A stretch of 64,000 nt of DNA, from the IMG/VR virus record IMGVR_UViG_3300045988_175328, positions 1 to 64,000 of that record. One strand, given 5' to 3'. Position numbers and translations under genes: made by a program. This document shows positions 2,092 to 59,470 of the stretch, piece after piece. The stretch comes from a virus. The notes under the pieces were generated by a model. The model worked only from the letters and a program-made list of their open reading frames with translations, did not search any database and was not told the DNA's origin. Each line of letters starts with the position of its first letter. Position 1 is the first letter of the stretch.

Positions 2092-3120
2092 ATGAAAGAA
2101 AATTTAGAAGACTTACTCGGAGCTATATTTGAGAGCGTTGAAGAATCTGGAATTGAAGCTCCGAAAAAAGAAACGAAACCAAAGAAATCTAAAAAGCTTT
2201 GGATGCCTAAAGATATTAAAACATATCTTGATAAATCTGTTGTTAGTCAAGATTTAGCGAAGAAGCTTCTGTCGGTTGGTGTATGTAACCATGAACGAAT
2301 GCTTCAATTTAATGAATCTCGACAAGAAGATGATCCGATTATCGAGAAAGCAAATATCTTAATGGTTGGAACGACTGGTAGCGGTAAAAGTTTCTTACTT
2401 AAAGAGATCGCTAAAATTCTTGATAAACCAATCGTTATCGTATCTGCATCTGGATTAACTAAAACTGGCTATGTTGGTGAAGACGCAACTTCTATCGTTA
2501 ATCGATTATATGAAGTGGCTGGTCGAGACAAAGAACGTGCAGAACAAGGTATTATTTTTATCGATGAGTTCGATAAAATTTCGGCACAAAAGAATAGCAA
2601 TGGTTATCAAGGACAAGATATTGGCGGCCGCGATGTTCAATATGAATTATTAAAAATCATTGAAGGCACACAAGTACCAATTAAATCTAGTTTCGATATG
2701 CTAACGCCTATGGGTATTCAACCAGCCGAGATGATTGATACAAAAAATATTTTATTTATTTGCGGCGGAGCCTTTACTGGTATCGAGAAAAAAATCGAAA
2801 GTCGTATCCGCGGCACTAATGATATGATTTCCTTTAAACAATCGACAAATCTTGTCGAAGAAAAAGAAATCTATTCATATAATAATGTGATTGAACATAT
2901 TTCGACCGATGATTTTAAAGAATTTGGTATTATACCAGAACTTCTTGGTCGATTACCGATTATTTGTCCGTTACGTAATTTAACGATCGAAGATTTAAAA
3001 GATATTCTAACAAAACCTCAACATGCAACCATGAAACAAATTGAAAAATTGGCGTCGATGTACAATGTTAAGTTAGAATATGAAGACGAGTCAATTGAAT
3101 TAATTGCTAAGATAGCTTAT
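2092..3120 (+). CDS. clpX: ClpX-like AAA+ unfoldase, exon 1 (no zinc-binding N-domain)
   Basis: Walker A GTTGSGKS, Walker B IIFIDEFDKI, ELLGRLP motif. The frame hits TGA at 3121, just where ClpX proteins continue into the ...TGARGLRS sensor-2 region. That region is found at 4912 onward. Confidence 0.85.
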
Positions 3121-3611
3121 TGAAATGTCAAAATAATACTTACGATTTTAATCGCGAGATTTATTTTGGCAAACTAGTAAGGATGTTGGGAAACTAGCAT
3201 CTAGTGGCGGATTAAATCCGTCCAACGAAGACACTGAATTGCTGGAAACTCCTAAAGCTCAGAGTGCCAAGCCCCATAAAGGGTTAGGCTACGAAAGTAG
3301 AAACAAACTTTGAGATGGTATATGGTTAAATCCTAAGTACTCTAACAATGGACAATCAGCAGCGAAGCCGGTAGAACTATTTACTAGTACCGGAACGTTC
3401 AACGACTATTCCTCGTGAGGGAAGTACACTACAAGTAATTGGTAGTGGAAGTGGTGTCGCCTAAGTAGTATAGATTTATACTATATGGATAAGATATAGT
3501 CTGTGCCTTGGTGAAAGTCAAGGGTGCGGGTAGTGCCGCCGGTTAGAAAGTAGCGTTTCTAACTGAACGATCATCCTCTCGAATCGTCTTAAACGGTTCT
3601 ATATACTATAC
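3121..3611 (+). ncRNA. group I intron ribozyme core (5' part of the clpX element)
   Basis: P-like AATTGCTGGAAACT 3237-3250, Q-like CAATCAGCAGCG 3353-3364, R-like GTTCAACGACTAT 3397-3409, S-like AAGATATAGTC 3491-3501. These resemble the classical Tetrahymena and phage group I consensus elements. Confidence 0.8.
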
Positions 3612-3770: not shown

Positions 3771-4766
3771 ATGCTAGATTTAAAATCTAAGCTCTATAAA
3801 AGAACTGGTAAAAATCTTAGTTATAACGAAGCTTGTGCTATTTTAACTAAGCTTAAGTCTAGAAGACCTTGGCTAAAAGAAGATGATGCAGTTGCATTGC
3901 AACAAGTTATCAGAGATTTATTCAGTTCTTATGAAAGATTTTTTAATGGGGCTGGATACCCTAAGTTTAAAAGCTCTCGAGACAAACAATCCTATCGTAC
4001 TAATGTATATTCTTTAGATATTGAGAATAGTACAATTAAAATTCCTAAAGTAGGAGTTGTGAAATTTCGTGACAAATACAAATTTGAAGGTTTAATTCGA
4101 GTTCGAAATGTCACGATTTCAAGATCTAAATCTGGTAAATATTTTGCATCAGTCTGTATCGAAGTAGAAACCACACCTCTTGCGAAAACCAAGAAGAGTT
4201 GTGGTATCGATCTCGGGATAAAAGATTTATGCATATTATCAGATGGAACTAAGTTTGAGAATCCTAGATTTAGAACTTTGCCAGCTGCTAAACGTAGATT
4301 AAGATTTTTGCACAAAGCTTTGTCGCGTAAGGAGAAAGGATCTAAAAGCTGGGAAAGAGCTAGAATCAGACTCGCTAGAGAGTATGAACGTCTAGCTAAC
4401 ATACACTTAGATTATCTTCACAAGCTGACTACTTGGATCATTCAGAATTATGATTTTATATCAGTTGAAACCTTAAAGGTTAAGAACATGCTGAAGAATC
4501 GTAAATTAGCAAGAGCTATTAGCGATGCTGGTTGGTTTGAACTAGTTCGACAATTAGAGTATAAAGCAAATTGGTATGGCAAGCAGTTTGTTAAGATAAG
4601 TACATTTTACGCTTCTAGTCAAATCTGCTCTAGCTGTGGAGATAGAAATTCAGCCGTGAAAAAACTTTCTATTCGCGAATGGGAATGTCCTAGTTGCGGA
4701 GCTTATCATGATCGTGATTTGAACGCAGCGATTAACATTCTGAACGAAGGATTAAAACAAATATAA
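3771..4766 (+). CDS. tnpB: TnpB-like RNA-guided endonuclease (RuvC + zinc ribbon); N-terminus disturbed by an in-frame TGA
   Basis: Ruv[11 protein letters not shown], Ruv[14 protein letters not shown], zinc ribbon CSSCG...CPSCG, Ruv[16 protein letters not shown] stronger start (ATG 3675 behind AAAGGAGG) encodes MIRAIKLRAYFTKHQEELVDKNFNCV in the same frame, but is cut off by TGA at 3753-3755. Confidence 0.85.
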
Positions 4767-9148: not shown

Positions 9149-9456
9149 TGACTGATGAAGAAATTATGCAAAGTTTAGTTTCATATATCGGAATGCTATC
9201 TTTACAATCTAAAGATACGCCGACGAATTTAAATAAAAGAATTATTGCAAATTTTATGTCTGTAATTCTTAATTTACTTGAAGCCGAAGGCGTTAATAAA
9301 GAAGAAGCTATCAAACCTTTGTATCCAGTAATCGTAAACTATTTAATCGAAAAGAATAATGTATTCAAAGAAGCTTCTGGTAAAGATAGTGAAACGTATA
9401 TCAATGCAATTAAGCTATTAAAGTCATTGGCAAAGAAAGAAGGTACGAATGGCTAG
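9148..9456 (+). CDS. hypothetical protein
   Basis: 102-aa ORF with an ATG overlapping the previous stop. Confidence 0.5.
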   Translation: MTDEEIMQSLVSYIGMLSLQSKDTPTNLNKRIIANFMSVILNLLEAEGVNKEEAIKPLYPVIVNYLIEKNNVFKEASGKDSETYINAIKLLKSLAKKEGTNG

Positions 9457-9709
9457 GAAGAAAGCTGTTGTTGTCGAAGAAGTATCGCATACGCTAACCG
9501 ACGAAGAAAAACGCAAACGAATCGATACGATTGCTTCGACAATCATGCAAAAGTCAAATATCGTCATCGGGCGATTAAGTGACGAAAAAGTCAAAGAAAA
9601 ACTTAAGATTGAATTCATCCCGACTCCGTCCGTTAATTTTAATGCAGCAACTGGAGGAGGGTTTCCAAAAGGAAAGATGACAATCTTATCAGGAACAGAA
9701 GATTCGGGT
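9449..9709 (+). CDS. recA: RecA-like recombinase, exon 1 (ends inside Walker A)
   Basis: ...GGGFPKGKMTILSGTEDSG then the frame dies. Joining to 9978 restores GTEDSGKTSL (Walker A GxxxxGKT). Confidence 0.8.
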
Positions 9710-9977
9710 AAGGTATTAAATTGCCCCTATAACTAGTAATAGTTAATAGAAAACTCTGTGATATGCTGGGAAACCGTCTAGGCAATCAGCAGGCAGCGTA
9801 CGTTTAATGTATTGCGCCCCAACGACTATCGAACACAGAATCTAATAAATGTTTTAGAGGATAAGTTAGTAGAGTACATTCGTTACGAATGGAAGCGCAG
9901 AGCATCTCATAACAAGGCTTGAGATGATGATATAGTCTAGTCCCCTAATAAATATCGGGAAACCGAGGGTGTTAACG
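9710..9977 (+). ncRNA. group I intron (ORF-less), recA intron 1
   Basis: Exon ends GGGU and pairs with GCCC at 9723-9726 (P1). P 9763-9775 ATGCTGGGAAACC, Q 9783-9793 CAATCAGCAGG, R 9817-9830 CCCCAACGACTATC, S 9929-9937 GATATAGTC. Last base is G (9977). Confidence 0.8.
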
Positions 9978-10288
9978 AAAACTTCATTAGTTCTTGAAAC
10001 AATTGGTAAATTGCATCGTGAAAATCCAGAAGGACATTTTGCCTTATGGATTGAAAGCGAAGCATCATTATCATTAGATTATTTAATTAACACATTCGGA
10101 ATTGATCCAGAGCGATTCTACTATATTCAGTACGATCGTGAACATGCAGCTGAAGATTGTTTAAATCAAGCCGAGGCTATTATTAATTCTGGTGTTATCG
10201 ATATCTTCTGTATTAATACTTTAAAAGCTCTTGTGCCTAAAAGCGAGATCCTTAAAAGTATGGAAGATGTTAGCGTGGCCTCCGGGTT
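9978..10288 (+). CDS. recA: RecA-like recombinase, exon 2 (3' limit uncertain, 10288-10304)
   Basis: KTSLVLETIGKL...ALWIESEASL...VIDIFCINTLKALVPKSEILKSMEDVSVASG is collinear with RecA GKTTLAL...IDAEHALD...[24 protein letters not shown]. Confidence 0.75.
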
Positions 10289-10656
10289 TTGGAAGGCATA
10301 TTGCGGTGACGCAGTGTGAAAACTTAGTAAATTGCTGGAATATCTTAATAATTTGTTAGCTACAACAGAATCTGTAAAGATAAATGTGAATGCAGTCGAA
10401 AGACAGAAAAAATAACAAATTTGTTGCAAGCTGAAAAAAAGCTTTTTTTAAAGTGCTAAACAACATTAACAATAGACAATCAGCAGCGAAGCCGACAAAG
10501 ATTTGTTGTCGGAACGTTCAGAGACTATCCTATAGCCACACGCTAAAATATAAATATGGCAACAGGAGTAGGGCCACTATGTGGTTGGTGAGATCCCATT
10601 AAATCGAAAAACTAAGCATCTTTTTTAAGATGATGATATAGTCCAAATCAGGCTTG
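10289..10656 (+). ncRNA. group I intron (ORF-less), recA intron 2 (boundaries +/- ~10 nt)
   Basis: P 10329-10341 AAATTGCTGGAAT, Q 10477-10488 CAATCAGCAGCG, R 10516-10530 GTTCAGAGACTATCC, S 10635-10644 GATATAGTCC. In-frame stops on both sides. Confidence 0.75.
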
Positions 10657-11266
10657 ATATTGCCAAGCCCGTCTTAATGCGACTTTTTGCCGGAAGTTCA
10701 TTCCATTAATCGATGAATTTAAAACAGCAATGATCTGCATCCAACATATGACAACCAATATTGGTTCTTTCAGTATGTATGGAGATAATTTAACATTAGC
10801 CGGTGGCAAAGCTATCCGAACAGCAGTAATGCTATGGGTAGACTTACGCAAAGGCTCGATTCTCGATACCGATCCAATTAAACGAGAAGAGGGTATTAAA
10901 GTAAACTGTACTGTACGGAAGAATCACTGTATTCCAGCTGAATTCCCATATCGTAAGTTTAGCTATTATGCCGTTTTCGGTCAAGGTATCGAACAAATTT
11001 TAAGTACTCTCGATGAGCTAGTAACTCAAGGAGTAATTAATAAAGCCGGTGCATGGCTTCAAGAAATTGATTACGAGACTGGTGAGATTCTCGACAAATG
11101 GAATGGTAAGAATGCCTTTCGTCAAGATATGCTAGATCATCCTGAAAAATTAAAACGATATATTGGTTTAATTCAAGGAACCTTTACTCAATTAACTAGC
11201 GAAGAAGTCGCTAAGTTAAAAGAAGAAGAGGCAAAAGGTGTAGAAGATGAACTCGAAGAAGAATAA
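10657..11266 (+). CDS. recA: RecA-like recombinase, exon 3
   Basis: (Y)CQARLNATFCRKF...ICIQHMTTNIGSFSMYGDNLTLAGGKAIRTAVMLWVDLRK is collinear with RecA LQARLMSQALRKL...IFINQ...[24 protein letters not shown]. Confidence 0.8.
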
Positions 11267-18799: not shown

Positions 18800-20701
18800 T
18801 TGAATTACCTGGAATCGCTAAATCCACAGCAATTTGAGGTTGCTAAAATAATTAAAGGTAAACGTATCGTTAATGCAGCTGCCGGTAGCGGAAAAACAAG
18901 TACTGTTGTGTCTAATGTAAGATATACAATAGATAGCGGAGTTGATCCTTCTAATATCTTAATGTTTACCTTTACACGAAAAGCAGCACTAGAAATGAAA
19001 GAACGGCTCAAAAAAGCAATTGGACCTTTAGCTAAGAAGGTAACAATTGGCACTTATCACTCTTTTGCCTGCACTGTCATTAGAAGATTCATCTCGCTTA
19101 CTCCATATGCTAGTAATTTTACTATCATTAGTCCTGACGATATGTTAACTATCGTTAAAGAAATTAGTGGAGTTAAAGATGATATTGCAAATTTAGATTT
19201 CTTACGATTCATCGAAGAAGTAAAATCTAATTTCTTATCGCCAGATGAATTACTTCGACATGAAGAGTATAAAAATAAAACTAAAAATATTATCATTTAT
19301 CGAGAATATCAACGGCGATTAGTTTCTGAAAATACAATGGATTTTAATGATCTTTTATTTCAGTTGCATATTTTAATGAAAGATCAAGGTGTTCTTGATT
19401 ATCTTCACAGTCAATATAAATATATTTGGGTAGATGAGATGCAGGACAGTTCTCGTAAAGATCTAGAATTAATTTTTAATTTAATGGGCAACAACGAAAA
19501 TGTTTGCGGAGTCATGGATAATAATCAGTCTATTTATAAATTCCGCGGCGCAGAAATCGATAAAGTTATCTTGATGCTTAAGAAAAATAACTTTAAAGAA
19601 TATCAGCTAGAACGTAATTATCGAAGCACACAAACTATTGTTAATGCAAGTAATAGCGTTATTGACAGAAACCCAATGCTCGTTAAAAAAAATGCATATA
19701 GTGCTGGTGAAATTGGCACAAAGGTACAGATTAAGCAACTCTTTGGTCAGCAAGAAGAATCAGAATTTATCTTAAAAACTATTTTATCCCTACAGCAAAA
19801 AAATGTAGCTTTACATGAAATAGCAATACTCGCAAGAACTAAAGGTGAACTTAGCCGTATCGAAAAACTGTTTTTAAGTAATTCTATTCCTCACACTCTA
19901 TATTCTGGATTAGCATTTATGGAGCGAGCTGAAATTAAAAATATTTTATCCTTTTTGAGATTTTTATATAATCCAAAAGATGAAACAGCATTCGCTAGAA
20001 TTGTTAATATTCCAAGATCTAGAATCGGAGAGAAGTCTGTTGCTAAAATATTAGCGCTAAAAGATAATGGAGATTATGTCGATATTGTCGATTGTGTTCG
20101 TAAGAATTTAAATTCTTTTAAAGGTGCGACTAAAAATGGACTACAAACTTTTTTAGAAAGATTTGATCTACTCAAATTGTATGCTGAAGAGAATGTGTTA
20201 CCAGCGGCTATTGTCGATAAATACATTGAGGTCTTTAAATATAAAGACTTTATTAAAACCGAATACAAGGAAATTGAAGATTGGTCTTTTAGACTTAATA
20301 ATGTTACAGTTTTTGAAAATATTGCTTCTAATTACTATACTTTAGAAGAATTCTTAACTGGTATTATTGAAGCTATTCCATCTTCTGAAAAACTTGAAGA
20401 TGCTGGCGTTACTTTGATGACAGTCCATGCATCTAAAGGGTTAGAATTTAGAGTAGTTCTTATTATGGGCGCTTCTGAAGGACTGTTTCCACATGCCATG
20501 TCGATGGATACTATTGAAGATATTCATGAAGAACGAAGACTTTGGTATGTAGCTATGACAAGAGCTAAGGAATTGCTTTTAATTACAAGCCCTAAAACAA
20601 GTATTTCAGCTGGTACAATTAAATTTCACAATGTAAGTCGTTTTGTTAATGAAATAGACGGTCAATATAAATTGTTCTATCCATATGCTAAAAAGTCGTA
20701 A
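18800..20701 (+). CDS. UvrD/PcrA/Rep-family SF1 DNA helicase
   Basis: NAAAGSGKTS (motif I), FTFTRKAALEM, VDEMQDS (II), RNYRST, MTVHASKGLEF, RRLWYVAMTRAK. Confidence 0.9.
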   Translation: MNYLESLNPQQFEVAKIIKGKRIVNAAAGSGKTSTVVSNVRYTIDSGVDPSNILMFTFTRKAALEMKERLKKAIGPLAKKVTIGTYHSFACTVIRRFISLTPYASNFTIISPDDMLTIVKEISGVKDDIANLDFLRFIEEVKSNFLSPDELLRHEEYKNKTKNIIIYREYQRRLVSENTMDFNDLLFQLHILMKDQGVLDYLHSQYKYIWVDEMQDSSRKDLELIFNLMGNNENVCGVMDNNQSIYKFRGAEIDKVILMLKKNNFKEYQLERNYRSTQTIVNASNSVIDRNPMLVKKNAYSAGEIGTKVQIKQLFGQQEESEFILKTILSLQQKNVALHEIAILARTKGELSRIEKLFLSNSIPHTLYSGLAFMERAEIKNILSFLRFLYNPKDETAFARIVNIPRSRIGEKSVAKILALKDNGDYVDIVDCVRKNLNSFKGATKNGLQTFLERFDLLKLYAEENVLPAAIVDKYIEVFKYKDFIKTEYKEIEDWSFRLNNVTVFENIASNYYTLEEFLTGIIEAIPSSEKLEDAGVTLMTVHASKGLEFRVVLIMGASEGLFPHAMSMDTIEDIHEERRLWYVAMTRAKELLLITSPKTSISAGTIKFHNVSRFVNEIDGQYKLFYPYAKKS

Positions 20702-49453: not shown

Positions 49454-50575
49454 ATGAATTACAATAATATAACTCCAGAAATGGTTATGTCTATGGATTT
49501 ACAAGAGCTCGTAAAACTTGATTACGCTAAGCTTCCTGAAAAGTCAAAGCTTGCGGTAATTAAAAAAGACCCAGTTATGTGGGCTAAAGCTTTTATTTCT
49601 TCTTATTCAATTGAGCAAGAAGAATATGTTCCATGGACAGCCAGATGGTATCAAGCTGAAATGCTTAGAGATAGGAGTTTACGTAAAGTATATCGATGTG
49701 GTCGTCGGTGTATTGCCGGCGATACATTAATATATGATCCTGAAACTAATAGCTCTATTTCAGCTAAAGAATTGTTCGATACCCGACAGGATGATTTCTT
49801 TACAGTGGCTTGCTTGGATCATGATTTCAAAACAGAGCAGATGCCTCTAGCTAAAATATATGAAAATGGTGTAAAACAAGTATATACAATAACGACAGAA
49901 TACGATAAACAAATTACTGTTACAGAAAATCATCCATTCTTAACACAAGTAGGATGGAAAGAATTAAAACATCTTCGTGTTGGAAATTTAATTGCAGTCA
50001 TTCAAGACGAAGGTATTTTATCAAAGTATGTCGATATCGACAAACAAACAATTGAATTAATACAAAAAGAATTAAATAAAGAAGTAAGTATCGAAAGTTA
50101 TTCAGATCTAATGCTTTATGCAGAAGAGGCTGGACTTGAAACAGTTTACGATATTCTTGATGGCGATTTGGCATGGGAACGAATTAAATCAATTCGATTA
50201 CGTGGCACAGAAATGACATATGATGTGTCCGTACCAGAATATCATAATTTTATTGCGAATGGATTTATCACTCACAATACTGGTAAAACAGAAACAATGG
50301 TTATCGAAGCATTGTACAATTGTTTCACTCGAGATAACTTTGTTCATATGTTTGTAACGCCATACGAAAACCAAGTTCGATTAATTTTCGATAATTTAAA
50401 ATCTAAGATCGATTCCTCGCCAAGGATTCGAACAGCACTCACTCGGTCGACACGGTCGCCGTACGTGATGGAATTTAACAATAAATCAAAAATTGTTGGA
50501 TTTACAACGGGCGCAAGTTCTGGTAGTAGTGCTGCCTCTATCCGCGGATGGCGTAGTGACTGGATCTCACTCGAT
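49454..50575 (+). CDS. terL: terminase large subunit, exon 1 (contains the intein)
   Basis: After intein removal, YRCGRR|TGKTE gives Walker A GRRTGKT. Ends in the Walker B strand IRGWRSDWISLD. Confidence 0.85.
49709..50278 (+). mobile_element. mini-intein (190 aa) inserted in the TerL P-loop
   Basis: Starts CIAGDTLI (block A), TENH (block B-like TxxH), ends FITHN followed by +1 Thr. Too short for a LAGLIDADG or HNH endonuclease domain. Confidence 0.85.
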
Positions 50576-51250
50576 TAAATAATACTATTGTAATAGTTTA
50601 AATAGTCCATTTATTTGGTAACAAGTAAATGTTGAGTTAAATCTCAAGAGTCTATCTAATTGCTGGGAACCCCTAAAGCTTAAAGTGCCTTTGGGCTGCG
50701 AAAGCAGAAATAAATCTTTAAGATGATATATGGTTAAATCCTAAGTATTGTAAACAATGGGCAATCAGCAGCCAAGTTAGTATTATAATTAATATTAAAA
50801 GGTTCAACGACTATCCTGAGAAGGAGTACTATGTAAGCGCATAGGAAATGGTAGAAATCCTACAAAGGATTAAGATATAGTCTATGCTTTATCGAAAGAT
50901 AAAGGTGCGAGTAATGTCGCCGGCTAGAATTAGCGAATCTAGTTGAATTAATATCAGGAAATGGATAATTAAATAATAGTTCATTTAAAACGCCGTTAAA
51001 CAACGAAACTCCTAAGAAGGACAACGATGTACCAAGCTCATTAGTTAATAATGAGTAGTGTTCAACGACTAGGGATGAAATAAGCTCCCCACGAAAGCGG
51101 TGAAACCTACTACAGTCTTATCGTCAAGTTTTATTCTGTAGTACGGAAGACATAGTCTAAACTGGACCAGAACTGACTGGTCGATGAAAATGAAGGTAAC
51201 TTCCAGAGCGCAAGATAAAGAGCTTGCGGTTAATAACAAATTGTATCTAG
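50576..51250 (+). ncRNA. group I intron, terL intron A (boundaries +/- 3 nt), with a second degenerate core in its 3' half
   Basis: P 50658-50670, Q 50761-50773, R 50802-50816, S 50872-50882. The core aligns closely with the clpX intron. A second R-like GTTCAACGACTAG lies at 51060-51072 and a second S-like AAGACATAGTC at 51147-51157. Confidence 0.75.
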
Positions 51251-51379
51251 GTGAAGGTGATTTCGACACAGTATATGCTCTTTGTATGGAACGTGCTAGT
51301 ATCGGAATGACATGTTCATCGACACCAACCGGTAGACGATCTAAGTTTTATGACATTTGTACTCAGAAGAGCCTCGGGT
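51251..51379 (+). CDS. terL: terminase large subunit, exon 2
   Basis: (E)GDFDTVYALCMERASIGMTCSSTPTGRRSKFYDICTQKSLG is collinear with the T4 gp17 region ...ISSGRRSKIIITTTPNGLNHFYDIW. Confidence 0.75.
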
Positions 51380-51622
51380 TAAAAATGGCCCCAATATTAA
51401 GCAATTAATGATTGAAAACCTTTTGAAATGCTGGGACTTCCTTTAAGGAAAATCAGCAGCGAAGCTTCTTAAATTTAAGAAGAACGTTCAACGACTATCC
51501 CATTTGGGAGTAGGGTCAAGCGACTCGAAGCAGAAGGCGTCCTATTGGGACGAAGATATAGTCTGAGCTACATAGAGATATGTAGAAGGTTGCAAGTAGC
51601 GAATGCAATCGTAACAATACTG
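51380..51622 (+). ncRNA. group I intron (ORF-less), terL intron B
   Basis: Exon ends CGGGU and pairs with GCCC at 51388-51391. P 51425-51436, Q 51448-51460, R 51485-51499, S 51553-51563. Last base is G (51622). The splice gives KSLG-F-KEHY, cf. T4 GKSGFEPY. Confidence 0.8.
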
Positions 51623-52119
51623 TTAAAGAGCATTACCATCCCGCACAGCATAGTCCTCTATATTCTCCAGAAATGGAGAAAGAATTCAGGGCGACATTCG
51701 ATAAAAATGCGTATGTACATGAAGTACTTGCAGAATTTGGTATCGAAGAAGCTGGCGTGTTTGATAAAGAAGCTCTCGAAAGAGCGACTCGCATGGACAA
51801 TTATGTCTATAATGACGAGATCAAACCGGTACATAATGAATTTAATTTGCGCTCAGCAAAGAAAATTCACCTTCTTCCAGAAGGACAAACTACATATAAG
51901 TATAACATGTATAGAACTATGGCAGTTGACTGGGATAAATCGCAGGCGCCAACTTCTATACTCGTCTTAGATTATGACCACGAATGGAATAAATTCCGGG
52001 TCATTAATCGAACTATGATCGAGCCATCAGATTTTCATTATGACTTGGCGGTAAAAAAGATCATTAATTTAAATGCTATATATAATCCTACTCATATCTA
52101 TATTGATAGGGGCGCAGGT
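51623..52119 (+). CDS. terL: terminase large subunit, exon 3
   Basis: KEHYHPAQHSPLYSPEMEKEFRATFDKNAYVHEVLAEF...IYIDRGAG. The frame is open only from 51586 and ends at TAA 52123. Confidence 0.75.
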
Positions 52120-52382
52120 AAGTAACTTGCCTCAATATAAAGAAAGCACATATATTTATATTGGATAATGCGGAATTAAGCGAGAACTCTAAGTTAAATA
52201 ATATGAGAACTCGAACCGAAGGCATTGCTAAGTAATGTCAGGGGCAGAGCATAGAAGTTGAAAAGATATAATACTTCCACGAGTCCGCATCACAGTTGTG
52301 CTATTATACTGTGAAAAAATATGCCGAACTTACAGGAAACTATAAGAACTACAAGATAAAAAACTTGTAGGATAACAAATTG
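52120..52382 (+). ncRNA. 263-nt intervening sequence of unclear class, terL intron C
   Basis: Joining 52119 (U) to 52383 (after a G) gives IYIDRGAG|EYQIEAL. It lacks the AATCAGCAG / GTTCAACGACTAT / GATATAGTC set of the other introns. It has ATGCGGA (52168-52174) / TCCGCAT (52284-52290) pairing and several hairpins. Confidence 0.5.
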
Positions 52383-52961
52383 GAGTATCAGATAGAAGCT
52401 CTTAAAATATATGGGAAAGAGCATCCATCTTCCGGCCTCGACAAAAAAATAAAAGGATTTATGTTCTCCGAGAAAATTCCAGTACAAGATCCAATTACTG
52501 GGATGATGGTGAAGAAGCATTTAAAACCATATATGGTAACTCAGCTTTCGATACTTATCGAAAGAAATAATTTAATATTAAGTCCGTATGATAGTCATAT
52601 ATTTAAACAACTTATTGACTATCGTATTGAAAAAATAACACAGTCTGGTGTTCCTGTGTATACTAGCGTTAATGAGCATTTTGTCGATGCACTTGGTCTT
52701 GCTTATCTTGCTTTTGTTCAAAACTTTCCAGAGTTAACGAATCTTGTTAAAGAAGCAGAACATAGACCATGTATTAAAATATTCGACAAATCTCCATTAG
52801 CTTCATATGCAAAAAAAGATTTAGACAATCCATGGGATTCTCGTGGATCTTTTGAATCACCAGACGAAGCATGGCAAAAGGTTCCGATGAACGAACCTTT
52901 AATTTCAACTAAGAAAAAAGCATTTTCAAAAAGTAATTGGTTTAAGAGGTCTATGTTTTAA
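52383..52961 (+). CDS. terL: terminase large subunit, exon 4 (nuclease domain C-terminal part)
   Basis: EYQIEALKIYGKEH...NEHFVDALGLAYLAF (conserved terminase nuclease Asp region). No RBS or ATG of its own. Confidence 0.75.
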   Translation, partial: EYQIEALKIYGKEHPSSGLDKKIKGFMFSEKIPVQDPITGMMVKKHLKPYMVTQLSILIERNNLILSPYDSHIFKQLIDYRIEKITQSGVPVYTSVNEHFVDALGLAYLAFVQNFPELTNLVKEAEHRPCIKIFDKSPLASYAKKDLDNPWDSRGSFESPDEAWQKVPMNEPLISTKKKAFSKSNWFKRSMF

Positions 52962-52963
52962 TT

Positions 52964-54634
52964 ATGGATGAAAATAAAAGAATACTTTTTGAACCGAAGA
53001 TAGAACCATATAGGCATTACGAATCAGATGCCAATTTCTTTCATGACTTAACAATTAATCCTATTGTAGGGGACCCTTTATCGATACCTTTAGGTGAAGA
53101 TACAGAAAAAGAAGTAGATCTTTTATTGGGCGAGTTACAAGAAATATATCAGTTAATTGATTTTATGCCGATTCCGATTCGGCCGATTATCGAAAATATT
53201 CTTGTGACAATAACAACTGAAACCATAATTAAAGAGATTCCTCCTCCGCCACACGAGACTCCGCCTGAAATACATATTCCAGAGGAACCTATTCCGGAGA
53301 AGAAGCCTCCAAAACTTACTCCTCATTTTCCTTCAGATCCTGAAGAGAAAAAAATTGTAACGCCTAAACCTGCGCCTAAAGATGATCCGTTTGGATTCGA
53401 CGAAGGACCCAAGAAAGACGTTAAGATCGGAAAATCTCTTCCGATTTCTGAAGTCGTTAATAAAATAGATTATCGTAATAATGTAAGAATTAAACGTGGT
53501 TGGGTCGCCCAACTATCGTCAGCACTTAGTCGATATATGCATAAAATGATGCACGCTGTAAGGCTGACTGGAGCGGAAGATATAACAGCATTTCTTCTTT
53601 TGTTTGACGGGTGGTTTGTTAAAACCGATAAAAATAAAAAAGAAAAAGCAGCACATGATACAATTGTGCGTAACGATGCTGAAATACGAGAAAAAAGTAA
53701 ATTACTCGCAAAGGTAATTTCGCCAGAAGAACTTCTTAAAAGCATGAGAGCATTAGAAGTTACTTCTCAGACTAGATCTAAATACTATTCATACAAATAT
53801 TCTACAGAAGGAAAGACATTCCTAGAGCAGATGGAAAATGATTTACTGTTCCATAAAAGAAGAAAGTATGATCTTAAGTATATAGATGCGGCGAATAATT
53901 ATTATAAATTATTAACTTCTTCTGTTAAATTAACCGATGATATATTTAATTTAACAGCTGAATCAGCTATGGCAAAAGCTGTACTATTAAATAAAGGGAT
54001 CGATATATTTGCACAACGCCCTATTCCTGATCCTATCTATTATTTAAATACATTAAATCCGTCTCTTGGAGATGTCGATGCCAATGGTCGATCTAGAACA
54101 GGGACATATGCTAAGCAAGCAAATCCAAATGATCCGACATGGAATCATACTGTATATAATCTCGAAGGAGTTGAGATTACTGCTGTCGGCGATTCTTTGC
54201 TTGCAGGGTCTCAAGAAATACTTAGAAGCAAACTTCCTAAATTTGAATCTGACGCTAAAGTAGGTCGACAAGCATCTGAGGCAATCGAGATATTTAAAAA
54301 TTTAGCAGGATCTACTCGTTTAGGAAAATTAGTAATTGTTTCACTCGGTACTAATGGTGATATGGTATCTGATGGTTCTGCCGATAAGATCATGGAAATT
54401 ATTGGTACAGATCGAGATGTTCTATGGTATAATAACTATGCAACGGCATCCAATGTTACTTGGGCCGAAACGAATAATAATTATCTCAATGAATTAAGAT
54501 CCAAATATCCTAAATTAAGAATTTTAGATTGGAAAGGAACTGCATCTAGCAAAAATCTTCTTTCTGGAGATGGAGTGCATCCATCAAGTTATGAAGAGTT
54601 TGCCCAGTTAGCATTAAGTGCATTAGGTAAATAA
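52964..54634 (+). CDS. structural-module protein with a Pro-rich region and a C-terminal SGNH/GDSL hydrolase domain
   Basis: Block I ITAVGDSLLAGS, block III VSLGTNGD, block V GDGVHPS. Confidence 0.65.
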   Translation: MDENKRILFEPKIEPYRHYESDANFFHDLTINPIVGDPLSIPLGEDTEKEVDLLLGELQEIYQLIDFMPIPIRPIIENILVTITTETIIKEIPPPPHETPPEIHIPEEPIPEKKPPKLTPHFPSDPEEKKIVTPKPAPKDDPFGFDEGPKKDVKIGKSLPISEVVNKIDYRNNVRIKRGWVAQLSSALSRYMHKMMHAVRLTGAEDITAFLLLFDGWFVKTDKNKKEKAAHDTIVRNDAEIREKSKLLAKVISPEELLKSMRALEVTSQTRSKYYSYKYSTEGKTFLEQMENDLLFHKRRKYDLKYIDAANNYYKLLTSSVKLTDDIFNLTAESAMAKAVLLNKGIDIFAQRPIPDPIYYLNTLNPSLGDVDANGRSRTGTYAKQANPNDPTWNHTVYNLEGVEITAVGDSLLAGSQEILRSKLPKFESDAKVGRQASEAIEIFKNLAGSTRLGKLVIVSLGTNGDMVSDGSADKIMEIIGTDRDVLWYNNYATASNVTWAETNNNYLNELRSKYPKLRILDWKGTASSKNLLSGDGVHPSSYEEFAQLALSALGK

Positions 54635-58231: not shown

Positions 58232-59470
58232 ATGGAAAATAAAATTGAATATTGCTTTGTAATTGATAAAGATAACCAACCATTAGCGCCAACAAAAGTG
58301 AATAAGGGATGGTATTTAATTAGAAAAGACAGAGCAAAATTAAAGTCTAAATACCCTATGGTAATTCAATTAAAAAAAAGAGTTAAATTTGATAAAAATG
58401 ACAAAAGTTGCATAGTTTGTGGTATAGATGATGGTTCTGTACATGTTGGATTAGCTATTGTACAAAAATGTTCTACTAAAAATAAGGTAGTATTTAAGGG
58501 AACTATCGAACAACGTCAAGATGTAAAACATAAAATAGATTCTAGACGTGGATATAGACGTTATCATCGTTATCACAAAAGACATAGACAAGCTAGATTT
58601 GATAATCGTTCTTCTTCTAAAAGAATTGGTAGATTGGCTCCAAGTATTAAACAAAAGAAAGATGCTATTTTAAGAGTACTGTATCAATTAAATAAATGGA
58701 TAAACATTAAAGAATATTATCTTGAAGATGTTTGTATAGACATTCGTGCAATGACAGATGGATATAAACCTTATAAATGGCAGTATCAAAAATCTAATCG
58801 TTTGGACGAAAATCTTAGAAAAGCTGCTATTATTCGTGACAATTCCAAATGTCAAGAATGTGGAAAATCTAATTGCATATTAGAAGTACATCATATACGC
58901 GCAAGAAGATATGGTGGAGCAAATACTATTGGAAACTTAATCACGCTTTGTCCTAAATGTCATCAAAAAACAGAAGGTAAGGAACGAGATTTTGAAGATA
59001 AATACTTCAAAATTATTGGTTTTAAACCTAAGCGATTTGATTATGCAATGCATGTTATGCAAGGCAAGAATTATCTCAGAAAGAAAATATCCGAATTAGG
59101 ATTGTTGCATTTAACTAATGGCGGCAAAACTGCGAATAAAAGAATTGAATGGAATATAGAAAAATCTCATAGTAATGATGCGATATGTATTACAAATAAT
59201 ATTCCAGATTCTTGTAATCTAAAAGAATGGATTATTAAGCCAATGCGAAGAAAATCAAAAGCAAAAACTAATAATGTATTAGGAATTAAGCATAGGGATT
59301 TAGTTTCTTATATATATAGAAATGGAGAAGTACATACAGGCTATGTTACGGCTTTATATCCAGAACAGTTAGCTTTAAATTTTCAATCAAAAACTAAACA
59401 TTGCAAAAAAGTAAATGCACGAAAATGTAGATTGCTTTGGCAGTTTAGTAAAATTTATTGGCTAGAATAA
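58232..59470 (+). CDS. iscB: IscB RNA-guided nuclease (PLMP-like N-terminus, split RuvC, bridge helix, HNH)
   Basis: [13 protein letters not shown] (PLMP-type), Ruv[15 protein letters not shown], Arg-rich bridge [22 protein letters not shown], Ruv[39 protein letters not shown], Ruv[13 protein letters not shown]. Confidence 0.85.

What the first reader, a model, noticed from the sequence alone, without database searches (positions are those of the whole stretch)
49454..52961. Large terminase gene carrying four independent insertions: one intein and three intervening RNAs
The TerL coding sequence can only be rebuilt by removing a protein-level intein (49709-50278) and three RNA-level insertions: ~50576-51250, 51380-51622 and 52120-52382. 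The rebuilt protein has GRR|TGKT Walker A, WISLD(E) Walker B, SSTPTGRRSKFYDI, KSLGFKEHY and IYIDRGAG|EYQ. Every insertion sits in or next to a catalytic motif (P-loop, Walker B, the coupling region, the first nuclease Asp strand). That is the classic signature of homing elements targeting conserved DNA. Multi-intron phage genes are known (for example in Staphylococcus phage Twort), but intein + three introns in one terminase is extreme.
Basis: partly seen in the sequence, partly recalled or inferred. Interest (0 to 1): 0.75.

Follow-up and report, generated by a model that had tools for sequence, protein, structure and literature searches.

The report
Terminase gene: four introns, one intein
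The DNA-packaging enzyme gene of a 227-kb uncultured phage is interrupted by one protein-level intein and four (not three) self-splicing group I introns, two of them separated by a 9-base exon that encodes the catalytic glutamate; this is an extreme example of a phenomenon already described in other phages.

Summary
The finding is real, but one detail is wrong. The terL gene (49454-52961, + strand) carries a 190-aa mini-intein in the P-loop (49709-50278). Intron A is 50576-50957 and intron B is 50967-51243. Between them sits a 9-nt micro-exon, GAAATGGAT (50958-50966, Glu-Met-Asp).

With the micro-exon included, the rebuilt 590-aa TerL aligns without gaps to uninterrupted homologs (~50% identity) at all five junctions. 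Every intron follows an exon U, ends in G, and forms a P1 helix with a U·G pair, a P3 helix and a P7 helix. Relatives carry an intron at site A only or at site B only, often with a LAGLIDADG endonuclease gene. One relative has a 15-nt micro-exon.

None of the window's five elements encodes an endonuclease. Splicing is inferred, not shown. Multi-intron and intein-bearing terL genes, small exons and exon skipping are already published for Bastillevirinae, Jug and crAss-like phages. This is therefore a new, extreme member of a known kind. Interest is moderate (0.48).

The parts
49454..49708 (+). terL exon 1, N-extein part (aa 1-85, ends ...YRCGRR of the Walker A / P-loop)
   Evidence: ORF. Gapless alignment to homologs across GRR|TGKT.
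49709..50278 (+). Mini-intein, 190 aa, in frame. Cys1, TENH (block B, aa 72-75), YDVSV (block F), terminal His-Asn, +1 Thr. No endonuclease domain.
   Evidence: Pfam PF14890 Intein_splicing E 3.6e-23 and no endonuclease family hit. Relatives L014/L016 have a 331-aa intein at the same GRR|T site. DNA similarity to those covers only the N- and C-terminal splicing parts.
50279..50575 (+). terL exon 1, C-extein part (aa 86-184: TGKTE ... WISLD, Walker B Asp). Ends in U.
   Evidence: The PDB TerL 4ZNI alignment places GRRTGKTE on Walker A and ildE on Walker B.
50576..50957 (+). Group I intron A (382 nt, ORF-less, phase 0, between Asp184 and Glu185). Stop codon TAA is at its first three bases. Best internal guide is GUUGAGU 50631-50637, pairing exon ACUCGAU 50569-50575 (U50575·G50631). 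P3 50651-56/50850-55, P7 50809-13/50878-82, P9 50887-93/50898-904. Ends in G50957.
   Evidence: Rfam RF00028 86 bits, E 1.7e-20. Helices checked, P1 candidates. Relatives L040/L044/L045/L052 have an intron at exactly this site and none at site B.
50958..50966 (+). 9-nt micro-exon GAAATGGAT = Glu185-Met186-Asp187 (Walker B catalytic Glu and an invariant Asp). Ends in U.
   Evidence: Restores DEMDY, which is DE[MVIC]D[YF] in all 14 homologs. The same exon sequence, gaaatggat, is contiguous with one neighbouring exon in L014 and L044. Eight of its nine bases pair with intron B's guide.
50967..51243 (+). Group I intron B (277 nt, ORF-less, phase 0, between Asp187 and Tyr188). P1: exon AAAUGGAU 50959-66 / guide GUUCAUUU 50979-86 (U50966·G50979). 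P3 50991-95/51098-102, P7 51067-71/51153-57, P8 51108-15/51136-43, 3' hairpin 51209-14/51223-28. Ends in G51243.
   Evidence: Rfam 46.2 bits (below the gathering score of 50), E 1.4e-8 over the whole window. 91.5% identical to the last 270 nt of the site-B intron of L014, which carries a LAGLIDADG ORF. The site-B intron of L058 reaches 53.6 bits. Helices. Covariation of the 3' hairpins.
51244..51379 (+). terL exon 3 (aa 188-232 plus the first base of codon 233: YLGEGDFD...SSTPTGRR...KSLG). Ends in U.
51380..51622 (+). Group I intron C (243 nt, ORF-less, phase 1). P1 GGGUUA 51376-81 / UGGCCC 51386-91 (U51379·G51388). P7 51493-97/51559-63. Ends in G51622.
   Evidence: Rfam 91.4 bits, E 4e-22. 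75-82% identical introns at the same site in more than 10 relatives, Rfam 105-110 bits there. Helices.
51623..52119 (+). terL exon 4 (aa 233-398: FKEHYHP ... IYIDRGAG, first nuclease Asp motif). Ends in U.
52120..52382 (+). Group I intron D (263 nt, ORF-less, phase 0, between Gly398 and Glu399), with a divergent core. P1 AGGUAAG 52116-22 / CUUGCCU 52126-32 (U52119·G52129). P3 52168-73/52285-90. P7 GCAUA 52249-53 / UAUGC 52320-24. P8 52291-96/52308-13. 3' hairpin 52349-55/52364-70. Ends in G52382.
   Evidence: Rfam 25.8 bits, E 8.8e-5 in a 321-nt scan of all 4227 families and E 1e-3 in 3.8 kb. Not listed at E<=0.01 over the whole window. Helices. Fold z-score -3.2. L029 and L065 have LAGLIDADG-encoding introns at exactly this junction. 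The shared 3' domain covaries.
52383..52961 (+). terL exon 5 (aa 399-590, EYQIEALK ... stop)

Best explanation
This is the large terminase gene of a ~227-kb uncultured phage, colonised by five self-splicing elements. The primary transcript contains four ORF-less group I introns (A 50576-50957, B 50967-51243, C 51380-51622, D 52120-52382). Each is expected to fold into the P1-P9 ribozyme, bind its own 5' exon through an internal guide sequence with a U·G pair at the splice site, and excise itself by two guanosine-initiated transesterifications ending at its terminal G. Introns A and B are tandem. They are separated by a 9-nt exon (GAAATGGAT) that encodes the Walker B catalytic Glu. This exon is the 3' exon of intron A, and almost all of it is also the P1 substrate of intron B. 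The spliced 2343-nt mRNA encodes a 780-aa (90 kDa) precursor that still has a 190-aa class-1 mini-intein inside the P-loop (GRR|C...HN|TGKT). Protein splicing then gives the 590-aa (68.6 kDa) TerL. All five elements have lost their homing endonucleases, which relatives at the same sites still carry. They are therefore immobile remnants that persist because precise deletion is rare and splicing keeps them nearly harmless. Shown here: the anatomy, the homology, the structure signals and the site occupancy in relatives. Inferred: that RNA and protein splicing actually occur, and in what order.
For: Rfam group I hits cover all four introns. All four have exon-U / intron-terminal-G boundaries, a P1 with U·G, and P3 and P7 helices, plus P8 and/or P9-region hairpins where checked. 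The six-exon rebuild is in frame (1773 nt) and gapless against 14 uninterrupted homologs at every junction, restoring invariant D184, E185, D187, G398 and E399. Sites A and B are occupied separately in relatives by Rfam-validated introns: L044 at 84 bits and L058 at 53.6 bits. Intron B is 91% identical to a LAGLIDADG-bearing site-B intron in L014. Site-D introns with LAGLIDADG ORFs occur in L029 and L065. In the shared 3' hairpins, 9 of 11 pairs covary and 0 of 500 shuffles reach that. The guide sequence matches the exon codon: window exon ACUCGAU with guide GUUGAGU, versus relatives' exon CUGGAU with guide GUCCAG. L039 has two Rfam-validated introns flanking a 15-nt exon, so micro-exons recur in this family. 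In-frame stops follow each 5' splice site within 0-10 codons. The intein has all splicing blocks, with Pfam E 3.6e-23. The locus is identical in three assemblies. Splicing of comparable phage terL introns has been shown by cDNA or metatranscriptomes elsewhere (PMC11878797, PMC12880540).
Against: There are no RNA or protein data for this phage. Introns B (46.2 bits) and D (25.8 bits) fall below Rfam's gathering score of 50, and D's core deviates from consensus in J6/7, P7 and J8/7. Intron A's P1 is ambiguous: a 7-bp long-range guide with a 55-nt L1, or a weak 5-bp local helix. I found no convincing P10 for A. A 9-nt exon shared by two ribozymes could splice inefficiently or be skipped. Some phage introns fail to self-splice in vitro (PMC11878797).
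Confidence: 0.85

Rival explanations
1. The stretch 50576 to ~51250 is a single intervening RNA (one large intron or a nested twintron) with no exon inside it, joining WISLD directly to EGDFD.
For: That join is also in frame. The two ribozyme cores are only about 35 nt apart.
Against: The product lacks six residues that all 14 homologs have, including invariant D187. The proposed 3' end (51252) is a U, not G. Two complete cores each have their own P1, U·G pair and terminal G. Relatives carry one or the other intron alone at sites exactly 9 nt apart. The 9-mer is identical to the contiguous exon sequence of relatives.
Confidence: 0.03
2. Splicing of the A / micro-exon / B region is order-dependent or partly skips the micro-exon. 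This would give a mixture of active TerL and an in-frame ΔEMD product that lacks the catalytic Glu. In other words, the tandem introns act as a throttle or switch on packaging rather than being neutral passengers.
For: Skipping (50575|51244) stays in frame because the exon is 9 nt. Exon skipping between adjacent group I introns was observed in Twort orf142, and is reported as a major splicing product in phage SIOphi (PMC11878797). Intron A's L1 holds GUCCAUUU (50605-12), which pairs with the micro-exon better than B's own guide GUUCAUUU does and could compete with it.
Against: TerL is essential and the micro-exon residues are invariant, so at least a fraction must be correctly spliced. There is no evidence of regulation. 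The complementarity could be a relic or chance, at roughly a few percent for an 8-mer in a 382-nt AU-rich intron (my estimate).
Confidence: 0.1
3. The gene is a decaying pseudogene of a defective or misassembled phage, and the fragments are not rejoined.
For: All homing endonucleases are gone. Introns B and D score below the Rfam threshold.
Against: There are no frameshifts or stops in 1773 nt of exon, and all invariant catalytic residues are kept. Splice boundaries are exact. The locus is identical in three independent assemblies, one of them a 227-kb contig with neighbouring portal and other genes intact. No second terL was seen in the window (not searched exhaustively across the contig).
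Confidence: 0.03
4. The fragments are translated separately and assemble non-covalently (a split terminase), possibly with trans-acting factors.
For: Gene callers annotate separate ORFs of 374, 150 and 193 aa.
Against: Exons 2 (9 nt) and 3 (136 nt, phase-1 end) have no start codon of their own in frame with the conserved sequence. The breaks fall inside the Walker B strand and the nuclease Asp strand. Ribozyme cores fill the gaps.
Confidence: 0.02

Closest known systems
Multi-intron terL and other core genes of Bacillus Bastillevirinae and Staphylococcus Twort-like phages (PMC11878797; Twort orf142 with three group I introns, the latter from my own knowledge and as cited in that paper)
   Same: Several compact group I introns with P7.1/P7.2-like insertions (my reading: subgroup IA2-like) sit in one essential phage gene. 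TerL is split by 2-3 introns. A small exon lies between two introns, and exon skipping occurs. LAGLIDADG/HNH endonuclease ORFs are present in some copies.
   Different: Here there are four introns plus an intein in one terL. The inter-intron exon is only 9 nt and encodes the Walker B catalytic Glu. All copies are ORF-less. The phage is an unrelated ~227-kb uncultured lineage (TerL at most 40% identical to any named phage).
Jug (jumbo gut) phages and crAss-like Delta/Zeta phages (PMC12880540, PMC7886860)
   Same: These are large uncultured human-associated phages whose genomes are densely infested with group I introns and inteins. Published cases include terL in 2-3 fragments, TerL with two inteins, and MCP in five fragments. 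Metatranscriptomes confirm splicing of many such introns.
   Different: This is a different phage lineage and TerL clade. The published cases combine fewer elements in terL (introns or inteins), and no 9-nt micro-exon is described in the passages I read.
Phage T4 td / nrdB / sunY (nrdD) group I introns (my own knowledge; reviewed in PMC3984707)
   Same: The expected mechanism is the same: guanosine-initiated self-splicing, P1 with U·G, a terminal G, and in-frame stop codons early in the intron.
   Different: T4 genes have one intron each, and two of the three encode endonucleases.
Inteins in ATPase P-loops and in Terminase_6 large subunits (PMC4760082); SPbeta bnrdE with intron plus intein in one gene (my own knowledge)
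   Same: A class-1 HINT intein is inserted in the Walker A loop of a P-loop ATPase. RNA-level and protein-level splicing elements coexist in one phage gene.
   Different: This is a mini-intein (190 aa) that has lost the endonuclease part present in relatives (331 aa at the same site; LAGLIDADG-bearing intein at a second site, GK|T, in P0107/L020).
Fungal mitochondrial cox1 micro-exons between group I introns (mentioned in PMC12308204; otherwise my own knowledge)
   Same: Exons of a few nucleotides are flanked by two group I introns, created by independent invasions of neighbouring sites.
   Different: Those are organellar and often depend on maturases. This one is in a phage.

Membership tests
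Group I intron (Rfam RF00028) | 5' splice site after an exon U that forms a U·G wobble with an internal guide sequence in P1 | tested here: met
   All four introns: A U50575·G50631 (7 bp; alternative G50605, 5 bp), B U50966·G50979 (8 bp), C U51379·G51388, D U52119·G52129.
Group I intron (Rfam RF00028) | Intron ends in a guanosine (omega-G) directly before the 3' exon | tested here: met
   G50957, G51243, G51622, G52382. These boundaries give gapless junctions with homologs.
Group I intron (Rfam RF00028) | Conserved core (P3-P8 with P7 guanosine-binding helix, J6/7, J8/7) scoring at or above the family's curated threshold | tested here: inconclusive
   A at 86 bits and C at 91.4 bits pass the gathering score of 50. 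B at 46.2 bits and D at 25.8 bits do not, although their E-values are 1.4e-8 (whole window) and 8.8e-5 (local). P3 and P7 are perfectly complementary in all four, and D has compensated P7 (GCAUA/UAUGC versus consensus GACUA/UAGUC). Same-site relatives of B reach 53.6 bits.
Group I intron (Rfam RF00028) | Structure conserved through compensatory changes among homologs | tested here: met
   Tested only for the 3' terminal hairpins of the B/D type: 9 of 11 pairs change on both sides, 87.9% of cells are paired, and 0 of 500 shuffles reach the score. Slid controls give 21-57% paired. Not tested for the cores.
Group I intron (Rfam RF00028) | Self-splicing with exogenous guanosine and Mg2+ | not testable with these tools
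   Needs in vitro transcription and splicing, or cDNA.
Mobile (homing) group I intron | Intron-encoded homing endonuclease ORF | tested here: not met
   No ORF of 60 aa or more on the + strand lies inside any of the four introns. Relatives at sites B, D and others encode LAGLIDADG proteins of 262-366 aa.
Nested twintron | One intron lies inside another, so the inner one must be removed before the outer can fold | tested here: not met
   A and B are side by side with a coding 9-nt exon between them. Each has its own P1 and terminal G, and each site is occupied alone in relatives.
Class 1 intein (HINT, Pfam PF14890) | In-frame insertion with N-terminal Cys/Ser, block B TxxH, C-terminal His-Asn, and +1 Cys/Ser/Thr | tested here: met
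   Cys1, TENH at aa 72-75...ITHN at 187-190, +1 Thr. PF14890 E 3.6e-23, 82.5 bits versus a cut-off of 35.8. Removal restores CGRRTGKTE, which is invariant in homologs.
Class 1 intein (HINT, Pfam PF14890) | Homing endonuclease domain (full-size inteins only) | tested here: not met
   Length 190 aa with no endonuclease family hit. It therefore files as a mini-intein. The same-site inteins in L014/L016 are 331 aa.
Class 1 intein (HINT, Pfam PF14890) | Protein splicing activity | not testable with these tools
   Needs expression and western blot or mass spectrometry.
Large terminase subunit (Terminase_6 / T4-like; PHROG 2) | N-terminal ATPase with Walker A (GRRxGKT), Walker B (hhhhDE) and coupling motif, plus a C-terminal RNase-H-like nuclease with conserved Asp | tested here: met
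   PF03237 E 3.7e-5 (23.9 bits versus cut-off 22), phrog_2 E 1.2e-26 over aa 42-550. Profile hit to PDB TerL 4ZNI aligning Walker A and Walker B. 40.5% identity over 88% of the query to an annotated TerL. Invariant G83-R84-R85-G87-K88, D184-E185, S212-S213-T214, D394.

The most novel reading that the evidence does not exclude
The 9-nt micro-exon is more than an accident of two invasions. It is simultaneously intron A's 3' exon and intron B's P1 substrate, and a better-matching decoy guide (GUCCAUUU) sits in intron A. Inclusion of the catalytic Glu-Met-Asp codons might therefore depend on folding kinetics or splicing order. The phage would then make a tunable mix of active TerL and ATPase-dead ΔEMD TerL, which would be a ribozyme-based control of DNA packaging.
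Probability: 0.08. Interest if true: 0.8.

Novelty: new member of a known kind. Interest (0 to 1): 0.48.

Why it matters
This gene shows how far selfish-element load can go in a single essential phage gene: five self-splicing elements in a 1.77-kb coding sequence, and at least nine distinct insertion sites across the TerL clade.

It is also a practical warning for annotation. Gene callers report three unrelated ORFs here, and even a careful manual rebuild missed a 9-nt exon that carries the catalytic glutamate.

The tandem A / micro-exon / B arrangement is a compact natural system for two questions. One is how two group I ribozymes share one 9-nt substrate. The other is whether exon skipping occurs, as reported for other phages.

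The relatives provide a ready-made series for studying the invasion-degeneration cycle of homing elements: empty sites, endonuclease-bearing copies, and ORF-less copies at the same positions.

Tried and rejected
- **Near-identity DNA search of phage genomes.** No match. The distant search hit only generic group I cores in unrelated phages, so no named close relative exists.
- **Exact/degenerate pattern search for the micro-exon / intron B junction in IMG/VR.** No match.
- **Metagenome-contig scan with the single spliced protein.** No confirmed relative. I did not use the second scan because IMG/VR already gave 80 loci.
Rejected: six-residue gap and no terminal G.
- **Alternative 3' splice site at G51180 (50575|51181).** I worked this out by reading the sequence, not with a tool. 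It is in frame but would insert 24 unrelated residues and replace the Walker B Glu with Ser. Rejected in favour of the micro-exon model, which matches all homologs.
- **Shifting intron D boundaries by ±1.** Also done by reading. +1 changes invariant Glu399 to Lys. -1 loses both the exon U and the terminal G. Rejected.
- **P10 for intron A.** I looked for it with either guide and found none convincing.
- **A further 12-nt micro-exon (WRAD) in L039.** I suspected one upstream of its 15-nt micro-exon but could not find boundaries with a terminal G. Left open.
- **Covariance model for the B/D intron type.** Not built. Endonuclease ORF insertions in the relatives made a clean alignment of the cores impractical, so I tested only the 3' domain.


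Full report
**1. What is there**

The + strand between 49454 and 52961 holds five pieces of open reading frame. Joined together, they form a large terminase subunit. Rfam finds group I intron cores at four places inside it:
- 50605-50904, 86 bits
- 50939-51180, 46.2 bits
- 51370-51585, 91.4 bits
- 52110-52346, 25.8 bits

The first and third pass the curated threshold of 50. The second has E 1.4e-8 over the whole 64-kb window. The fourth has E 8.8e-5 in a local scan against all 4227 families.

The first ORF contains an in-frame 190-aa insertion at 49709-50278. It starts with Cys, ends in His-Asn and is followed by Thr. It matches Pfam Intein_splicing at E 3.6e-23.

**2. Correcting the anatomy**

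These are 580-600 aa, about 50% identical, with E down to 1e-180. That rebuild has a six-residue gap immediately after the Walker B "LDE". All homologs read DE[MVIC]D[YF][ML]xxxx[DC][FY][DE] there.

Between them is GAAATGGAT (50958-50966, Glu-Met-Asp). It is preceded by a G and ends in a U. Downstream, TATCTAGGTGAAGGT (from 51244) encodes YLGEG.

Using the exons 49454-49708, 50279-50575, 50958-50966, 51244-51379, 51623-52119 and 52383-52961 gives 1773 nt in frame and a 590-aa protein. This protein aligns without any gap at all five junctions. It restores the invariant residues D184, E185, D187, G398 and E399.

The gene therefore carries one intein and four introns:

| Element | Coordinates | Length |
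|---|---|---|
| Intein | 49709-50278 | 190 aa |
| Intron A | 50576-50957 | 382 nt |
| Micro-exon | 50958-50966 | 9 nt |
| Intron B | 50967-51243 | 277 nt |
| Intron C | 51380-51622 | 243 nt |
| Intron D | 52120-52382 | 263 nt |

**3. RNA-level evidence for each intron**

A script check shows the following for all four introns:
- the last exon base is U and the last intron base is G;
- a P1 helix places that U opposite a G;
- P3 and P7 are perfectly complementary;
- P8 and/or P9-region hairpins were checked in each intron and are also perfectly complementary (P9 and a 3' hairpin in A; P8 and a 3' hairpin in B and D; a 3' hairpin in C).

Intron B's guide, GUUCAUUU (50979-86), pairs with eight of the nine micro-exon bases.

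Intron D is the most divergent. Its P7 (GCAUA/UAUGC) differs from the consensus (GACUA/UAGUC) on both strands and still pairs. Its fold is more stable than shuffles (z = -3.2).

Intron A has two possible guides. One is a 7-bp pairing of GUUGAGU (50631-37) with exon ACUCGAU. The other is a 5-bp local helix using G50605. I favour the first. Relatives whose site-A exon reads CUGGAU have the guide GUCCAG. The window's exon reads CUCGAU and is matched perfectly by GUUGAGU. In other words, guide and exon vary together across different introns at the same site.

Introns A, B and C show P7.1/P7.2-like insertions in the Rfam alignments, as in subgroup IA2 phage introns. That subgroup assignment is my own reading, not a tool result.

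Each intron has an in-frame stop 0-10 codons after its 5' splice site. This is the usual arrangement in phage introns (my own knowledge).

**4. Evidence from relatives**

A scan of IMG/VR with the TerL alignment returned 80 loci. A tblastn map of those loci shows that this TerL clade is a hotspot for insertions. Sites, in the window protein's numbering:

| Site (aa) | Element | Occupied in window? |
|---|---|---|
| 85/86 (P-loop, GRR\|T) | intein | yes |
| 88/89 (P-loop, GK\|T) | intein | no |
| ~175/176 | insertion, kind not established | no |
| 179/180 | intron | no |
| 184/185 (site A) | intron | yes |
| 187/188 (site B) | intron | yes |
| 232/233 (site C) | intron | yes |
| ~337/338 | intron | no |
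| 398/399 (site D) | intron | yes |

- **Sites A and B.** L040, L042, L044, L045, L047 and L052 have an intron only at site A: 234-240 nt between ...CTGGAT and GAAATGGATTAT... L044's copy scores 84 bits in Rfam. L014, L038 and L058 have one only at site B, and L058's copy scores 53.6 bits.
- **Intron B.** L014's site-B intron is 1100 nt. Its last 270 nt are 91.5% identical to window intron B. It carries a 277-aa LAGLIDADG ORF in the P1 loop.
- **Intron D.** The site-D introns of L029 and L065 sit at exactly the same junction (GCAGGT|...G|GAATA) and encode LAGLIDADG proteins.
- **Shared 3' domain.** Site-B and site-D introns share a 3' terminal domain whose two hairpins covary. Nine of 11 pairs change on both sides, 0 of 500 shuffles reach that, and slid controls are far lower. 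This ties the weakly scoring intron D to a structured RNA family.
- **Intron C.** It has 75-82% identical counterparts at the same site in more than ten relatives, scoring 105-110 bits.
- **Another micro-exon.** L039 has two Rfam-validated introns (79 and 81 bits) separated by a 15-nt exon, TGGATATCACTGGAT (WISLD). Micro-exons therefore recur where neighbouring sites are both occupied.
- **Intein.** The intein at GRR|T is 331 aa in L014 and L016. DNA similarity to the window's copy covers only the two splicing ends, so the window has a deletion derivative. Other relatives (L020, P0107) carry a LAGLIDADG intein three residues downstream, at GK|T.

**5. Is it real and expressed?**

The 3508-nt locus is identical in a 227-kb contig (ERZ27276323) and a 12-kb contig from another sample. 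It differs by one exon base in a third. The exons contain no stop or frameshift, and all catalytic residues are kept.

A profile of the family aligns Walker A and Walker B to the solved TerL ATPase 4ZNI. Pfam Terminase_6N and PHROG 2 match. The nearest named phage TerL is Moorella phage MTATph1 at 40.5% identity, followed by Bacillus jumbo phages at 30-34%.

Splicing itself is inferred. There are no transcript or protein data here.

**6. Mechanism**

The pre-mRNA should undergo four guanosine-initiated self-splicing reactions. The resulting 2343-nt mRNA would encode a 780-aa, 90.4-kDa precursor. Intein excision would yield the 590-aa, 68.6-kDa TerL.

The micro-exon creates an unusual dependency. 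The same 9 nt are intron A's 3' exon and intron B's P1 substrate. Joining A's 5' splice site directly to B's 3' splice site would delete Glu-Met-Asp in frame and give an ATPase-dead protein. Exon skipping of this type has been seen in Twort orf142, and is reported as a major splicing product in phage SIOphi (PMC11878797).

Intron A's L1 also contains GUCCAUUU (50605-12), which pairs with the micro-exon better than B's own guide does. This may be a relic, chance, or a competitor. I cannot tell which.

**7. Position relative to motifs**

- The intein splits Walker A.
- Intron A splits the Walker B Asp from the catalytic Glu.
- Intron B lies three codons later.
- Intron D lies four residues after the first nuclease Asp (D394).
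- Intron C lies about 20 residues after the SSTPTG coupling motif, just before the invariant EHxHP.

**8. Comparison with the literature**

- Terminases are a common intein target, and P-loops a common site (PMC4760082).
- Bastillevirinae terL genes hold two or three introns. A small exon between two introns and exon skipping were found there by cDNA sequencing (PMC11878797).
- Jug phages average 18.5 group I introns per genome and have terL in two to three fragments, with splicing confirmed by metatranscriptomes (PMC12880540).
- crAss-like Zeta/Delta phages have an MCP in five fragments and a TerL with two inteins (PMC7886860).

The kind is therefore known. What is new here is the degree (five elements in one terL), the 9-nt exon encoding the catalytic Glu, and the lineage.

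**9. Verdict**

The finding is real and largely correct, with a significant correction: four introns, and a micro-exon. It is a new and extreme member of a known kind, of moderate interest.

The window as a whole is intron-rich, with at least seven group I introns. These include an IStron-like element in a clpX-like gene and two introns in a recA-like gene.

Noticed in passing
window 2092-~5060 (+): A ClpX-like AAA+ ATPase gene (2092-3123) is interrupted by about 1.8 kb. The insertion holds a group I ribozyme (3139-3523, Rfam 74 bits) followed by a 331-aa TnpB (3771-4766; Pfam OrfB_IS605 E 2e-24 and Cas12f1-like_TNB E 2e-25). The ClpX C-terminal exon (...GTGARGLRSIV...) resumes at about 4905. 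This is the architecture of an IStron (group I intron fused to an IS200/605 element), here inside a phage gene.
   Followed up: partly
window 9449-11266 (+): A RecA/UvsX-like gene is in three pieces (9449-~9730 ending in the P-loop ...GTEDSGK, 9969-~10300, 10730-11266), separated by two group I introns (9700-9959 at 60.5 bits; 10272-10666 at 55.5 bits). Together with the four introns in terL and the clpX one, that makes at least seven group I introns in 64 kb.
   Followed up: partly
L039 3865-4440: A relative's terL has two Rfam-validated group I introns (79 and 81 bits) flanking a 15-nt micro-exon, TGGATATCACTGGAT (WISLD, 4179-4193). A further upstream insertion may create a second micro-exon (TGGCGTGCCGAT, WRAD, near 3879), but I could not find clean boundaries for it.
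   Followed up: partly
L005-L084 (terL loci of relatives): Across the clade, terL has at least nine insertion sites: inteins at aa 85/86 and 88/89, and introns or unclassified insertions at ~175/176, 179/180, 184/185, 187/188, 232/233, ~337/338 and 398/399. Four of these lie within 13 codons around Walker B. Many copies carry LAGLIDADG ORFs with N-terminal HTH domains.
   Followed up: partly
window 50605-50612 versus 50959-50966 and 50979-50986: Intron A's P1 loop contains GUCCAUUU, a perfect 8-bp complement (with terminal U·G) of the micro-exon AAAUGGAU. It is a near copy of intron B's guide, GUUCAUUU, and the flanking UAAAUA(AUA) is shared too. It could be a relic of a common origin, a decoy, or chance.
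   Followed up: partly
window 50570-50575 versus L044/L045/L040 exon ends: The Leu183 codon is CTG in relatives whose site-A intron has the guide GUCCAG. It is CTC in relatives without a site-A intron (L014, L051). It is also CTC in the window, whose different site-A intron has the guide GUUGAGU, matching CTC. This suggests guide-exon co-adaptation, or synonymous 'immunising' changes.
   Followed up: partly
window ~58232-59470 (+) (= L001 11269-12507): A free-standing 412-aa gene with RRXRR and HNH domains (precomputed Pfam) lies about 5 kb downstream of terL. It is a possible trans-acting homing endonuclease in a region where every intron and the intein have lost their own.
   Followed up: no
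window 20501-20596 (+): A sub-threshold Rfam hit to RF03531 (C. difficile sRNA n00280 'included into helicase gene'): 41.9 bits against a gathering score of 65.2, E 0.0018.
   Followed up: no
window 52964-54634 and 54634 onward: Directly after terL come a 556-aa protein with a C-terminal SGNH/GDSL-like sequence (my reading of the translation, not tested) and a 686-aa protein with a weak Portal_Mu hit. The window matches a 227-kb ENA contig (ERZ27276323 k141_26322).
   Followed up: no
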